6,136 nt of DNA from a virus. Taxonomy: Duplodnaviria > Heunggongvirae > Uroviricota > Caudoviricetes. Each line of letters opens with the position of its first letter. Within the stretch, counting starts at the first letter, position 1. The translations under genes and the position numbers were made by a program. A model generated the notes under the pieces. That model was not told the origin of the DNA, did no database searches, and saw nothing but the letters and a program-made list of their open reading frames with translations. The stretch lies in IMG/VR virus record IMGVR_UViG_3300029073_000029; one strand, written 5' to 3'. Shown here piece after piece: positions 1 to 4,669 of the stretch.

Positions 1-22
1 CGAAGGTGAGTTGATGGCTCAT
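1..22 (-). CDS. 5' end of a minus-strand ORF (MSHQLTF...) that runs off the left edge; sits where P4 beta follows gop
   Basis: ATG at 22..20 (plus-strand cat), AGAGG about 6 nt upstream, frame open to position 1. It starts 41 nt after the TGA of the 63..1082 gene. Only 7 codons are visible, so identity is unknown. Confidence 0.3.
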
Positions 23-62
23 GATGTCCCTCTGGGATGCGCTCCGGATGAATATGATGATC

Positions 63-1082
63 TCATATCAGGAACTTGTTCGCACCTTCCCTAGCAGAAC
101 GGACATCGACTGGTGTAAGGAAGAATTTATTCTTCCATTTTTGATTTTTAAATCTTGAGGATAGCCTTGCTATTAAAGATGACTTTCCATTTCCTGAACC
201 GCCTATAAGTGATAGGACTCTACTTTGAGAGCTATTTCCTCTAACATTCTCAAGATAATCCCAAACTTCTTTCTGTATATATTCGCGACCAACAAAGTCT
301 TTCGGCTGACATGGCTTATAATCCATAAAATCGTCAGCAAGAATTATTTCACTGACAATTTCCCTTTCGTAATTTTCAGATAATTTTGAAGACGAAACAG
401 TTTGTTCCGGTTCAGATAATATATAAAAATCAGTTACTTCCAACCCTTCAAAAAGCCCTTGCTCCTTTATAATATCACTTATGCGACTGACACTTGGAAT
501 TTTACTATTTTTATTTATAGCGAACGGCACCACTCTTATAGGGCTACCATTTTCAACTTCTTGCAAAAGCCAAGTCATTTCTATTTCAGGATGAACTAAA
601 AGTGTTGCACTAGTATATTTTGCCGGAATGTCATCTGTTGGAATATCCTCAACCTTACCTGTTGCAAGTATAGATATAAGAATCTCTTTTTTATCAAAAA
701 AAGAATAATCTATACGCTCATCAAGTCTATAATCCTCAAGCGTTGACTGAGCATCTTTACCCAAATCAGAAATTGAAAAAAGTGCAATTTTTTTAACTCT
801 CAACCTAAATGCTTGAGAAAATGCCAAATCAACCACAGATGAATCAACTTTTTGCTGCATGAATTTACATTCTACATACAGCTTTTCATTTGATGGTGTA
901 TGAGTAGCCTGAATATCAATTTCCATGCCAGATTTTCTGACTTCCATACCATCAATTCTATACGATTGCCGGCGGAGTATATCAGCGCAAAAATTCTCGA
1001 AAAACTTCCCTCTCGAGGTATTGGAATAATTACTAGGTACACAAACTATCAAATCTTTATTCAGTGGTAACGGCCTGGCCAT
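63..1082 (-). CDS. AT-rich cargo protein, 339 aa: N-terminal Mrr-like PD-(D/E)xK nuclease motif plus C-terminal start of an AAA_16/STAND-type P-loop NTPase that appears truncated
   Basis: Complete ORF with AAGGAG about 8 nt upstream of the ATG at 1082. Seen: GKFFENFCADILRRQSY...GMEIDIQA...KLYVECKF (hD...ExK pattern typical of Mrr_cat restriction-endonuclease domains) and FVGREYIQ...RVLSLIGGSGNGKSSLIARL (Walker A, at about 203..180) followed by only about 38 residues before TGA at 65..63. Clearly AT-rich by eye compared with flanking DNA. Position corresponds to gop in P4 (inference). Confidence 0.8.
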   Translation of the reverse strand: MARPLPLNKDLIVCVPSNYSNTSRGKFFENFCADILRRQSYRIDGMEVRKSGMEIDIQATHTPSNEKLYVECKFMQQKVDSSVVDLAFSQAFRLRVKKIALFSISDLGKDAQSTLEDYRLDERIDYSFFDKKEILISILATGKVEDIPTDDIPAKYTSATLLVHPEIEMTWLLQEVENGSPIRVVPFAINKNSKIPSVSRISDIIKEQGLFEGLEVTDFYILSEPEQTVSSSKLSENYEREIVSEIILADDFMDYKPCQPKDFVGREYIQKEVWDYLENVRGNSSQSRVLSLIGGSGNGKSSLIARLSSRFKNQKWKNKFFLTPVDVRSAREGANKFLI

Positions 1083-1097
1083 TTATACACTCCTTAT

Positions 1098-1127
1098 CTC
1101 ATATCCTTTTGACAAGTAAGATATCAA
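1098..1127 (-). promoter_or_regulatory. Candidate sigma70 promoter for the cargo gene
   Basis: On the minus strand, TTGATA (plus 1127..1122), an 18-nt spacer, then TATGAG (plus 1103..1098), just upstream of the AAGGAG RBS. Motif match only. Confidence 0.25.
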
Positions 1128-1202
1128 CCTCGAGTTTCAGAAACCAGTATCTTGCGCATATTTACGACATCAAAACTTTTGGTTATGCACCCACAGCGCG
1201 CA

Positions 1203-1221
1203 GTGCTTTCCCCGCCTCGCC
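1203..1221. other. cos: cos site: 19-nt P2/P4-type cohesive-end sequence
   Basis: Plus strand gtgctttccccgcctcgcc is the reverse complement of GGCGAGGCGGGGAAAGCAC, which I recall as the P2/P4 cohesive end. The following bases on the minus strand (TGCGCGCTG) also match my recollection of the P2 left end. It lies right after psu, as in P4. Confidence 0.7.
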
Positions 1222-1323
1222 CGCCCGCTTTGCGGGGCGGTTTTAATGCAGTTGCACTGACACGCTCAGACCGCGCCGGGAATGGTGCGGTCTGCAGAAA
1301 ATGAGGCAGGAAAACGCATGCAA

Positions 1324-1355
1324 AGCCATGCACCTTATCGATGCATGGCTTTTTT
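1324..1355. terminator. Perfect 9-bp hairpin with T-tract between psu and cos; possibly bidirectional
   Basis: AGCCATGCA (1324..1332), 9-nt loop, TGCATGGCT (1342..1350), then TTTTT (1351..1355) on the plus strand. On the minus strand the stem is preceded by A-run and followed by UUGCAUGCGUUUU, a weaker U-tract. Confidence 0.5.
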
Positions 1356-1385
1356 CAGTAAAAACGGGAGGATTTTCGGGGAATT

Positions 1386-2031: not shown

Positions 2032-2532
2032 TCATTCCAGACGCAGCGAATATGATTGTGTTTTTAACCGTACTGGCGGCAGTTCCTGTTTTTCATGCAG
2101 GCTTTCTGCAAGCTCGTCCGGCGTGACCGGGCGGACAATGAAGCGGTTGATGGTCTGAAGCGTTTTAAACACCAGACCACAGCCCGGATCCGTGCACACA
2201 TAAAAACGCTCGGTGACTTCCTGAGACAGACGCCGCGATGTTCTTGACAGCGCAAGGCCTTTACATCTCCGACAACAATATCCGGTAACAAGCATTCTTT
2301 TCGGGCGCTTCATGCTGCCGGAGGCTGACGTCAGTGAATCGCGGTATCTCTGTTTGCCTGAAATGTATTCCATTCCTGAATCTTTACAGTCAGAGAAAAA
2401 GCTTTCACTCGCTTCAAATGTCGCAGAGCAATAAATATTCCGGCACTGTGCAATCATTATCTTGGTGCCATCGTCCATGAAATGTGCGCGACGGGTGTGA
2501 GCAACATGTCCACACGACGGGCAGTAAATCAT
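2032..2532 (-). CDS. delta: Delta late-gene transcriptional activator, 166 aa, with two Ogr-type zinc fingers
   Basis: Two copies of the C-X2-C-X22-C-X4-C finger characteristic of the Ogr/Delta family: CPSC...(22)...CRNIYC and CRRC...(22)...CTDPGC. Start ATG overlaps the sid stop as ATGA (plus strand 2529..2532 tcat). Length matches the 166 aa I recall for P4 Delta. Confidence 0.9.
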   Translation of the reverse strand: MIYCPSCGHVAHTRRAHFMDDGTKIMIAQCRNIYCSATFEASESFFSDCKDSGMEYISGKQRYRDSLTSASGSMKRPKRMLVTGYCCRRCKGLALSRTSRRLSQEVTERFYVCTDPGCGLVFKTLQTINRFIVRPVTPDELAESLHEKQELPPVRLKTQSYSLRLE

Positions 2533-3263
2533 GACAGCAGTCCTCTGGCCTTAAGCTTTGCTCCCTGCTGGTCTATTTTGTCCTGCCACACCTTGCGCTG
2601 TGCCGGTGTGCCTGCCACCTCATAATCCATGTGCGGGAGTGTTGCCGCTGACAGTCCGGTCAGCCGGAGAACCGGCTCGCCGGTGAGGCTGATTTGCATC
2701 TGTTTTATTTTCTGTTCCAGCGATGATTTCACCTGCTGCATGACAGCCTTTTCCGGTGCGACGTAGCCCTGATGGCCGGTGGTGTTGGCGAGCGGATTTT
2801 CCTGTACCAGGATGCTCAGATGCATTGCCCGGACAAGCGCCTCACAGGTTTCATTCAGGGCGTGTTCCAGCTCATGCTCTGCATACAGACTCAGCAGGTG
2901 ATGATGTGCCTTCCGGTAGGCGGTGGCCGTGCTGTCACACGCCCCTTTCAGGCGTTCGCGTTCAAAATTCAGCACCACGGCCAGATTGTCATATTCCTGT
3001 ACCAGCTCCCGGCGTGCCACGCGCTCAATGTGGCGCTGTTTCAGCTCGTCGCTCAGGACACCACCGGCTGCACGAAAGGCCGTGCGCCAGTCGTCAGCGT
3101 CGTTTCCGTCGGCCTGCGCCAGCGCATTTTTTTCCTGCTCTGCCCGTTCAATGGCCGTGACGGTCTCATCCATCAGGCGGGCGTTCTCAAGATGGGCGGC
3201 TCTGGCCTTTTCCAGTTGTGCCAGTGCGGGTTTCAGATATTCAGGGATAGTGTGGTCAGACAT
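2529..3263 (-). CDS. sid: Sid-like external scaffold / capsid size determination protein, 244 aa
   Basis: The ORF-track start at 3281 is a GTG. The ATG at 3263 has AGGAG about 7 nt upstream and gives 244 aa, the length I recall for P4 Sid. Helix-prone composition. First gene of the sid-delta-psu order, downstream of TGT-N12-ACA sites. Confidence 0.8.
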   Translation of the reverse strand: MSDHTIPEYLKPALAQLEKARAAHLENARLMDETVTAIERAEQEKNALAQADGNDADDWRTAFRAAGGVLSDELKQRHIERVARRELVQEYDNLAVVLNFERERLKGACDSTATAYRKAHHHLLSLYAEHELEHALNETCEALVRAMHLSILVQENPLANTTGHQGYVAPEKAVMQQVKSSLEQKIKQMQISLTGEPVLRLTGLSAATLPHMDYEVAGTPAQRKVWQDKIDQQGAKLKARGLLS

Positions 3264-3297
3264 TTTCCGGCTCCTCGTCACTTCAGGTTAAGAAAAT

Positions 3298-3815: not shown

Positions 3816-4082
3816 ATGCAAGCTGTTTTTTCTTCCCCGTCTCCCGCCCCTGTGACGCCACTGATGCCGCTGCCGGACATCACACAGGAGCGTTTTTTAC
3901 GTCTTCCGGAAGTGATGCACCTGTGCGGCCTGTCACGCTCGACCATCTATGAACTCATCCGTAAGGGGGAATTTCCGCCGCAGGTGAGTCTTGGCGGTAA
4001 AAATGTGGCCTGGCTGCACTCTGAAGTCACCGCATGGATGGCCGGCCGCATTGCCGGACGCAAACGGGGGTACGACGCATGA
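3816..4082 (+). CDS. vis: AlpA/Vis-family DNA-binding regulator (excisionase-like helix-turn-helix), 88 aa
   Basis: [51 protein letters not shown] matches the AlpA-family pattern (LP.V....G.SRST.Y.....G.FP....LG.....W...EV..W). GAGG lies 7 nt upstream of the ATG at 3816. An alternative in-frame ATG at 3864 would give 72 aa. Confidence 0.85.
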
Positions 4083-4117
4083 TGATGCCTGTTCTGCAAA
4101 AAGTCCCTTTTTCTGGC

Positions 4118-4147
4118 TTGCCTTTTTCCGGCATTTGCGGATATAGT
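4118..4147 (+). promoter_or_regulatory. Candidate sigma70 promoter (PLE-like) upstream of the immunity-like leader
   Basis: TTGCCT (4118..4123), 18-nt spacer, TATAGT (4142..4147). Motif match only. Confidence 0.35.
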
Positions 4148-4154
4148 TTTTCCG

Positions 4155-4471
4155 CTGCCGCAAAATCGGCAGCCGGGCGTGAGAACCCGTGTAACTCGAA
4201 GGCGACATATGACGCGCCATGCGTCTTTTTTTGTGTCGCAATCAACGCCACAGAGCGCCAGATTATGGTGTGGCGTGTGGTTTGCCGTGCAGGTATGATC
4301 CTGTTCGCAATCGCATGTTATGCCACTGAGTCAATGGTAGCTCAGGCGGGGCAGCCTCCGGGCTGGCCGGTATTCTTCGAGGCCGGTATTCTCACCCCCG
4401 TCTGGGCTATCGCCATCGAGCGTGAGAACTCCGGCGATAGCAGTTATTTGCTACTCGAAGGAGGCTGCCTT
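4155..4471 (+). ncRNA. Untranslated leader with repeated boxes and complementary segments; candidate cI-type immunity RNA region
   Basis: GCGTGAGAAC occurs twice (4177..4186, 4420..4429), each followed by ACTCGAAGG (4194..4202, 4453..4461; the second abuts the RBS of the 65-aa ORF). Between them, CTTCGAGG (4375..4382) and TTCTCAC (4389..4395) are complementary to those boxes, within a 12-nt direct repeat GGCCGGTATTCT (4365..4376, 4381..4392). No convincing ORF with RBS. Boundaries are approximate. Confidence 0.35.
4211..4232 (+). terminator. Short GC hairpin followed by T7; candidate intrinsic terminator within the leader
   Basis: GACGC (4211..4215), 5-nt loop, GCGTC (4221..4225), then TTTTTTT (4226..4232). 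Confidence 0.4.
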
Positions 4472-4669
4472 ATGGCTACAACCCTTACCCCCTCACACCC
4501 TGAATTTGTCTTTGTGTTTGCGGCTGTCCGTCGCGCAGACCGTCATCCCCGTATCTGCATGCTTCGCACCGTCGCCGGTGATGAACGCAGCGCCCGCCGT
4601 TCCCTTGTCCGTGACTATGTGCTCTCCCTTGCTGCCCGTCTGCCGGTGGTGGAGGTGTCCCGTGCGTAA
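4472..4669 (+). CDS. Small protein, 65 aa, first ORF after the leader (position comparable to P4 kil)
   Basis: GAAGGAGG ends about 7 nt before the ATG at 4472. It is the 3' part of the 211-aa track ORF, whose upstream portion lacks an RBS and overlaps vis and the leader. Confidence 0.55.

What the first reader, a model, noticed from the sequence alone, without database searches (positions are those of the whole stretch)
63..1082. Cargo gene at the P4 hotspot position: Mrr-like nuclease fused to the start of a STAND-type NTPase
Seen: a 339-aa AT-rich ORF whose N terminus carries a restriction-endonuclease-like PD-(D/E)xK signature (GKFFENF..ADIL...Y, EIDIQA, YVECKF) and whose C terminus begins a classic AAA_16/STAND ATPase (FVGREYIQ...VLSLIGGSGNGKSSLIARL). 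Established: P4 carries gop-beta-cII between cos and int, gop is toxic without beta (Ghisotti et al. 1990), and P4-like satellites carry variable anti-phage cargo at this locus (Rousset et al. 2022). Nuclease-STAND fusions are the architecture of Avs-type antiviral proteins. Inference: this is either a defence/abortive-infection effector or the toxin half of a two-gene module with the ORF starting at 22. If the window is P4 itself, this is gop, whose biochemistry is, as far as I know, uncharacterised.
Basis: partly seen in the sequence, partly recalled or inferred. Interest (0 to 1): 0.8.

Follow-up and report, generated by a model that had tools for sequence, protein, structure and literature searches.

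The report
IS-broken antiviral NLR-like gene on P4 satellite
The 339-codon reading frame is the front third of an already catalogued 913-residue nuclease–STAND (NLR-like) candidate anti-phage gene carried by a P4-like satellite, cut off here by an IS5-family insertion sequence, so it is a recently broken gene rather than a new fusion or a toxin module.

Summary
Window 63-1082 (minus strand) is a 339-aa AT-rich ORF with a real Mrr-type PD-(D/E)xK nuclease domain, followed by the first ~50 positions of a STAND NTPase. It lies just past cos and psu of a P4-like satellite, at the known defence hotspot.

The "nuclease fused to the start of an NTPase" form is an artefact. Window 1-90 is 100% identical to the end of ISKpn26 (IS5 family), inserted at a CTAG at 91-94. 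The last 8 codons and the stop come from the IS, and the "ORF at 22" is the start of the IS transposase.

ORF residues 1-331 are identical to WP_000113630.1 (913 aa), which is uninterrupted in 53 of 5,426 complete E. coli genomes. A separate metagenome contig holds the opposite junction: the other IS end, a duplicated CTAG, and codons 332-913 without a single change. The insertion is therefore simple and recent.

The intact protein is system #13 in Rousset et al. [quoted passage not shown] Its closest solved structure is Avs4, but it matches no PADLOC Avs model and seems untested. It is not gop. The truncated product lacks Walker B, the oligomerisation domains and the sensor, so it is probably dead. 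Low interest.

The parts
1..90 (-). Terminal 90 nt of an IS5-family insertion sequence (ISKpn26-like). The terminal inverted repeat GGAAGGTGCGAACAAG lies at 75-90 (read on the minus strand). The transposase start codon is at 22-20 and runs leftwards out of the window (MSHQLTF...).
   Evidence: 100% identity over window 1-94 (IS end plus the CTAG) to thousands of copies annotated 'IS5-like element ISKpn26 family transposase'. A longer contig, L003, continues MSHQLTFADSEFSTKRR.
91..94 (.). CTAG target site of the IS insertion, duplicated on the other side of the IS.
   Evidence: The window junction reads ...CACCTTCC|CTAG|CAGAACGG against the intact ...CCGCCT|CTAG|CAGAACGG. The opposite junction in L006 reads ...CCGCCT|CTAG|GGAAGGTGCGAATAAGCGGGG.
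91..1082 (-). Native 5' part of the 2742-nt Mrr-nSTAND1 gene WP_000113630.1: codons 1-330 plus two bases of codon 331. Residue 331 stays Arg by chance (AGA to AGG).
   Evidence: 100% DNA identity from position 91 onwards to 53 E. coli chromosomes. 331 of 331 residues are identical.
63..1082 (-). The ORF as read by the first stage (339 aa): 331 native residues, then 8 IS-encoded residues (EGANKFLI, 66-89), then the stop (63-65).
732..1013 (-). Mrr_cat PD-(D/E)xK nuclease domain (aa 24-117). Catalytic residues: D56 at 915-917, E71 at 870-872, K73 at 864-866.
453..710 (-). Second, confidently folded alpha/beta domain (aa 125-210) with no profile match. It is followed by a disordered linker (aa 224-259, window 306-413).
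   Evidence: AlphaFold pLDDT about 90; no Pfam family.
91..296 (-). Remnant of the nSTAND1 NTPase domain (aa 263-331): the FVGRE motif at 282-296 and the Walker A GGSGNGKSS at 177-203. Walker B (D392, E395, E396) and everything after it are missing.
   Evidence: In the truncated model this segment has pLDDT 35-83 and loses its beta strand.
1196..1385 (.). Conserved P4 cos region. The 19-nt cohesive-end sequence (reverse complement of GGCGAGGCGGGGAAAGCAC) lies at 1203-1221. Homology with P4 ends at 1196, which is where the variable cargo begins.
   Evidence: aligned to the P4 sequence printed in Table S2A of PMC9122126.
1386..1958 (-). psu (polarity suppression protein, 190 aa), the conserved flank of the hotspot.
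   Evidence: Pfam Psu.

Best explanation
The ORF is the 5' third of a single-gene, NLR-like (Avs-like) candidate anti-phage gene carried in the psu/cos-int hotspot of a P4-like satellite. Here the gene is interrupted by a recent transposition of an IS5-family element (ISKpn26). Shown: the IS end, the CTAG target duplication on both sides, and identity of both halves to the intact 913-aa gene. Inferred for the intact protein: a C-terminal region (aa ~600-913, winged-helix-like units and a helical bundle) senses an infection cue. The nSTAND1 NTPase (Walker A 294-302, Walker B 392-396) then drives ATP-dependent oligomerisation, which brings the N-terminal Mrr-type PD-(D/E)xK domains together so that they cut DNA and abort the infection, as in Avs3 and Avs4. 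Inferred for the allele in the window: transcription and translation from the native start would give a 339-aa product with a complete nuclease domain. That product has no Walker B, no helical or winged-helix oligomerisation domains and no sensor, so it cannot be switched on. The defence function is lost and the ORF is a fresh pseudogene.
For: IS identity: window 1-94 (the 90-nt IS end plus the CTAG) is 100% identical to ISKpn26 copies, with the transposase N-terminus on the same strand. Break point: DNA identity to 53 E. coli chromosomes starts exactly at position 91, and protein identity stops after residue 331. Opposite junction: an exact match to the predicted sequence was found in L006, with the other IS end, CTAG, and codons 332-913 with 0 mismatches. 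The truncated ORF occurs on 8 gut-metagenome contigs from at least 3 assemblies, each ending inside the IS. Intact gene: 2742 nt, uninterrupted and about 100% identical in 53 of 5,426 complete genomes, and the only gene between cos/psu and int. Family: 536 homologues, typically about 900 aa. The full-length protein passes the Pfam cut-offs for nSTAND1 (32.0 vs 27.1) and Mrr_cat (32.1 vs 21). Nuclease, Walker A and Walker B residues are invariant. The best PDB match for the full-length model is Avs4 bound to portal, E=1.4e-11. [quoted passage not shown] Avs proteins oligomerise on target recognition, and deleting their effector abolishes cell death (PMC13601566 abstract; PMC13581612).
Against: The two junctions come from different assemblies, so no single molecule has been shown to carry 5' half, IS and 3' half together. 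No complete E. coli genome in the collection has this insertion. No experiment shows that the intact protein defends against phage: it is absent from the table of cloned systems in Rousset et al., and no PADLOC model matches it. Its sensor region matches no profile, and a trigger could not be inferred. Loss of function of the truncated product is inferred from other Avs proteins, not shown.
Confidence: 0.9

Rival explanations
1. The 339-aa product is a working stand-alone protein. Freed of its regulatory NTPase and sensor, the Mrr nuclease plus middle domain would act as a constitutive or differently regulated nuclease, or interfere with intact copies.
For: The promoter, start codon, the whole nuclease domain with its catalytic residues, and the second domain are intact and predicted to fold confidently. 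The allele is seen in several metagenome assemblies.
Against: Family members are consistently about 900 aa. The shorter hits in the list have reduced query coverage and are mostly from short contigs, so no natural ~330-aa form is evident. The P-loop remnant is predicted to be disordered. In characterised Avs proteins the nuclease is active only in the oligomer. The downstream 582 codons are still perfect, which points to a very recent event rather than a maintained new gene.
Confidence: 0.05
2. One reading: a toxin paired with the ORF starting at 22 as a two-gene toxin-antitoxin or abortive-infection module, or P4 gop itself.
For: The position matches that of gop-beta-cII in P4. A nuclease domain could act as a toxin.
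Against: The sequence from 22 leftwards is the N-terminus of the ISKpn26 transposase, present in thousands of unrelated places. In all 53 intact loci the gene stands alone between cos and int. gop is a 133-aa two-transmembrane-helix protein, unrelated in size and domain content to this ORF.
Confidence: 0.01
3. The junction is an assembly chimera: the assembler joined an intact gene to an IS copy located elsewhere in the community.
For: The window is a metagenome-type contig that ends inside a high-copy repeat. No isolate genome shows the insertion.
Against: The break falls exactly at the IS terminal base, next to a CTAG, the preferred IS5 target. The reciprocal junction with the same CTAG was predicted in advance and then found as an exact 37-nt match in another contig. 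The same junction recurs in at least 3 assemblies.
Confidence: 0.03

Closest known systems
P4-hotspot system #13 of Rousset et al. 2022 (PMC9122126, Table S1B): 'AAA_35/Mrr_cat', NLR-like protein with an N-terminal endonuclease effector (WP_000113630)
   Same: It is the same gene. Residues 1-331 are identical, the position between cos/psu and int of a P4-like satellite at ssrA is the same, and it is a single-gene system.
   Different: The copy in the window is interrupted after codon 331 by an ISKpn26 insertion. That study catalogued the system but did not clone or test it.
EcAvs4 (PDB 8dgf), an antiviral STAND with an Mrr-like nuclease effector that senses phage portal protein
   Different: Only 12% identity. 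No PADLOC Avs model matches, and a family profile finds no Avs chain in the PDB by sequence. The protein is 913 aa against 1,534 aa. The NTPase belongs to Pfam nSTAND1. The C-terminal region is short and predicted as winged-helix-like units plus a helical bundle, not a large TPR array. The trigger is unknown.
TIR-NLR of P4-like satellites (Rousset et al. 2022; validated)
   Same: It occupies the same hotspot, is a single gene, and has the same effector-STAND-sensor logic.
   Different: Its effector is a TIR (NADase) domain, not a nuclease. It has a TPR sensor and was shown experimentally to defend.
IS5/ISKpn26 insertional gene inactivation in Enterobacteria
   Same: The terminal repeats are identical, a 4-bp CTAG is duplicated, and the insertion lies in AT-rich horizontally acquired DNA.
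   Different: Nothing unusual. The target simply happens to be a satellite defence gene, and a 2026 preprint reports defence pseudogenes as rare in P4 (<1% of P4 pseudogenes).

Membership tests
Pfam Mrr_cat (PF04471) / PD-(D/E)xK nucleases | Profile score above the gathering cut-off | tested here: met
   33.9 bits against 21, E=3.8e-8, aa 24-117 of the window ORF.
Pfam Mrr_cat (PF04471) / PD-(D/E)xK nucleases | Catalytic D...(D/E)xK residues present and conserved, on the restriction-endonuclease-like fold | tested here: met
Pfam nSTAND1 (PF20703) STAND NTPase | Profile score above the gathering cut-off | tested here: not met
   Window ORF: 20.9 bits against 27.1, with only profile positions 8-58 of 379 matched. 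The intact 913-aa protein does pass, at 32.0 bits.
Pfam nSTAND1 (PF20703) STAND NTPase | Complete P-loop NTPase core (Walker A and Walker B) | tested here: not met
   Walker A (aa 294-302) is in the window. Walker B (D392, E395, E396) lies beyond the IS break at residue 331.
Avs (antiviral STAND) families as modelled in PADLOC-DB 2.0.0, and those with solved structures | Sequence-profile match to a named Avs family | tested here: not met
   No Avs model matches the full-length protein; the only hit is a P-loop match to DndF at E=4e-4. A family profile finds no Avs chain in the PDB.
Avs (antiviral STAND) families | Tripartite architecture: N-terminal effector, central STAND NTPase, C-terminal sensor | tested here: met
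   True of the intact protein only: AlphaFold model with pLDDT 84, and Avs4 as top Foldseek hit over about 1000 columns. The window ORF keeps only the effector.
Avs (antiviral STAND) families | Anti-phage activity triggered by a phage component | not testable with these tools
   No published test was found. The supplementary tables of Lee et al. 2026, which assign clades and clusters, are not held.
P4-like satellite defence-hotspot cargo (Rousset et al. 2022) | Located between psu/cos and the integrase of a P4-like element | tested here: met
   The window holds psu, delta, sid and cos. In intact loci the integrase follows directly, as it does in L006.
P4 gop | Small (133-aa) protein with two transmembrane helices, followed by beta and cII | tested here: not met
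   The sequence and description of gop are in Table S2A. The ORF here is a soluble nuclease-NTPase with no beta or cII.
IS5-family insertion | Element terminus abutting the target, with a 4-bp direct duplication on both sides | tested here: met
   Window 1-90 is 100% ISKpn26. CTAG lies at 91-94 and again at the opposite junction in L006. The two junctions are on different contigs.

The most novel reading that the evidence does not exclude
The intact ~900-aa Mrr-nSTAND1 family (536 or more homologues across Gammaproteobacteria and beyond) may be a still-untested antiviral STAND family. Its short sensor, built of winged-helix-like units rather than TPRs, might recognise something other than the folded phage proteins sensed by Avs1-24, for example nucleic acid. 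The two independent IS hits on it (ISKpn26 here, IS1A in strain MB53) might then reflect selection to switch off a costly or helper-phage-blocking gene, not neutral decay.
Probability: 0.15. Interest if true: 0.45.

Novelty: already known. Interest (0 to 1): 0.15.

Why it matters
It matters mainly as a correction. What looked like an unusual nuclease fused to a stub of an NTPase, or the uncharacterised gop toxin, is an insertion-sequence break in a gene already listed among P4 hotspot systems. There are two small points of value. First, the family is common (97 loci in Rousset et al., 53 of 5,426 complete E. coli genomes, hundreds of homologues), sits outside the PADLOC models, and appears untested, so it is a reasonable candidate for a defence assay. 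Second, an IS-inactivated defence gene in a P4-like satellite is an example of a state that a 2026 preprint reports as rare, and a second independent IS-mediated loss of the same gene exists in strain MB53.

Tried and rejected
(1) PADLOC and NCBIfam scans of both the 339-aa and the 913-aa proteins gave no defence-family or equivalog assignment, only generic P-loop matches.
(2) A family-profile search of PDB sequences found only a marginal winged-helix hit (2d1h, E=0.008, aa 616-685).
(3) Pfam scans of the middle domain (aa 120-260) and of the C-terminal 313 and 453 residues found nothing meaningful.
(4) A full-text search for the accession returned no paper. It appears only in a supplementary table.
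(5) The four listed papers that mention nSTAND1 did not appear, from their titles and abstracts, to concern this protein.
(6) The supplement of Lee et al. 2026, which could assign the protein to an Avs clade or cluster, is not held.
(7) The promoter scan found no sigma-70 consensus upstream of the gene, so the promoter remains unassigned.
(8) I looked for the insertion allele in complete E. coli genomes and found none.
(9) The gop hypothesis is rejected on size and domain content.

Full report
WHAT IS IN THE WINDOW

The window is part of a P4-like satellite prophage. On the minus strand lie psu (1386-1958), delta (2032-2532) and sid (2529-3281). The regulatory and replication genes follow on the plus strand (the RefSeq annotation of identical loci is). 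The 19-nt P2/P4 cohesive-end sequence is at 1203-1221. Ungapped homology with P4 itself stops at 1196 (aligned to the P4 sequence printed in Table S2A of PMC9122126). Everything to the left of 1196 is therefore the variable cargo of the psu/cos-int hotspot described by Rousset et al. 2022.

THE OBSERVATION

ORF 63-1082 (minus strand, 339 aa) exists with all the quoted motifs. It has 35.5% GC, against 53.7% for the rest of the window.

The nuclease is well supported:
- Pfam Mrr_cat scores E=3.8e-8, above its cut-off.
- D56, E71 and K73 are invariant across 44 homologues down to 28% identity.
- An AlphaFold model of residues 1-331 is very confident for aa 10-220.

The C-terminal part carries FVGRE and the Walker A GGSGNGKSS. 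It matches only the first ~50 positions of the AAA_16 and nSTAND1 profiles, and both scores are below their cut-offs.

WHY THE ORF STOPS WHERE IT DOES

Window 1-90 is 100% identical to the end of ISKpn26, an IS5-family element present in thousands of places in E. coli. Read on the minus strand, the sequence runs in this order: gene, CTAG, GGAAGGTGCGAACAAG... (the terminal repeat), then ATG AGC CAT CAA..., which translates to MSHQLTF, the start of the transposase. DNA identity to E. coli chromosomes begins exactly at position 91.

The ORF is identical to the 913-aa protein WP_000113630.1 for 331 residues. The last 8 residues (EGANKFLI) and the stop are read from the IS repeat.

I predicted the opposite junction as IS end + CTAG + AGGCGGACG... 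and scanned metagenome contigs for it. One exact 37-nt match was found, in L006. There the other IS5-family end (GGAAGGTGCGAATAAGCGGGG...) abuts a second CTAG, and codons 332-913 follow without a single amino-acid difference from the intact gene. The integrase comes next. This is a simple transposition with the 4-bp target duplication typical of IS5 (that typical behaviour is from my own knowledge of the element). It is recent, because the orphaned 3' part has not decayed.

The truncated ORF is on 8 human-gut metagenome contigs from at least 3 assemblies, all of which end inside the IS. None of the 5,426 complete E. coli genomes has the insertion. Fifty-three of them carry the uninterrupted 2742-nt gene at about 100% identity.

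WHAT THE INTACT GENE IS

It is the only gene between cos/psu and the integrase of a satellite integrated at ssrA. Full-length, it passes the Pfam cut-offs for both nSTAND1 (32.0 vs 27.1) and Mrr_cat. It belongs to a family of at least 536 proteins, typically about 900 aa. Relatives include Serratia, Pantoea and Pectobacterium (76-81% identity), Vibrio, Aeromonas and Acinetobacter (about 48%), and more distant lineages. The nuclease residues, Walker A (G297, G299, K300, S301, S302) and Walker B (D392, E395, E396) are invariant.

The AlphaFold model (pLDDT 84) shows these parts:
- a nuclease domain (aa 8-120);
- a second alpha/beta domain (125-210);
- a disordered linker (224-259);
- the NTPase with its helical and winged-helix modules (about 263-600);
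- a C-terminal region of winged-helix-like units ending in a helical bundle (613-912).

The best solved-structure match is EcAvs4 bound to phage portal (8dgf, E=1.4e-11).

At sequence level the protein is not a member of any named family I could test. No PADLOC 2.0.0 model matches, including the Avs models. No Avs chain in the PDB is found with a family profile. The middle domain and the C-terminal region match no Pfam family.

WHAT IS ALREADY PUBLISHED

Table S1B of Rousset et al. [quoted passage not shown] The main text mentions hotspot STAND proteins whose effector is Mrr_cat. The sequence does not occur in their table of cloned systems, so it appears to be untested.

A 2026 Nature paper defines at least 90 antiviral STAND families and finds triggers for Avs7-21. 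I could not check where this protein falls, because its supplement is not held. In P4 itself the hotspot holds gop-beta-cII, and gop is a 133-aa protein with two transmembrane helices. The ORF is not gop.

HOW IT MOST LIKELY WORKS

For the intact protein the mechanism is inferred by analogy with Avs proteins. Those oligomerise on target recognition and kill through their effector domain (PMC13601566 abstract; PMC13581612). The C-terminal region would sense an infection cue, the NTPase would drive oligomerisation, and the clustered Mrr domains would cut DNA.

For the allele in the window, the start codon and the native upstream sequence are intact, so a 339-aa product is probably made. It lacks Walker B, the oligomerisation modules and the sensor, and its P-loop remnant is predicted to be unfolded. 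It is most likely inert, and the defence function is lost. I put 0.9 on the structural conclusion (an IS-disrupted copy of system #13) and about 0.6 on the Avs-like mechanism of the intact protein.

VERDICT

The feature is an already catalogued gene in a broken state, so interest is low.

Two residual points remain. The family looks untested and lies outside current defence-finder models. Also, IS-inactivated defence genes are reported to be rare in P4 satellites, yet the same gene has been hit a second time, by IS1A in strain MB53.

Noticed in passing
L007 (NZ_CP073939.1, E. coli MB53) 4001-6261: This is a second, independent disruption of the same gene. Only the 3' 1548 nt remain next to int and ssrA. 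An IS1A sits at the break, and the 5' half plus the rest of the P4-like satellite are gone, which suggests an IS1-mediated deletion.
   Followed up: partly
window 4141-4417 (+): Rfam finds the P4 immunity RNA region: C4 antisense RNA (CI RNA) at 4330-4417 (74.3 bits), isrK at 4154-4231 (70.7 bits), and the c4 a1/b1 target at 4141-4193 (50.4 bits). These overlap mechanical ORFs such as 4034-4669, whose 5' part is therefore probably non-coding.
   Followed up: partly
window 1124-1333 (-): RefSeq annotates a 69-aa 'hypothetical protein' (WP_071590453.1) here in the identical loci. It runs straight across the cos site (1203-1221) and the GC-rich hairpin at 1221-1240, so it is probably a spurious call.
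   Followed up: no
window 21-158 (+): This 45-aa ORF lies antisense to the IS end and to the gene remnant. It spans the insertion junction, so it exists only because of the insertion and is almost certainly meaningless.
   Followed up: no
L001 2360-7226: In strain EC1722-1 a second integrase with an AAA ATPase + RloB pair (an OLD/AbiL-like candidate defence pair) lies between ssrA-side phage genes and the satellite's own integrase. This is a tandem island at the same attachment region, and it is absent from STEC346 (L002).
   Followed up: no
L006 10574-12310 (-): The orphaned 3' part of the gene forms a 578-aa ORF with a GTG start, directly downstream of the IS end. It lacks the nuclease and Walker A. 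I did not examine whether read-through or IS-driven transcription expresses it.
   Followed up: no
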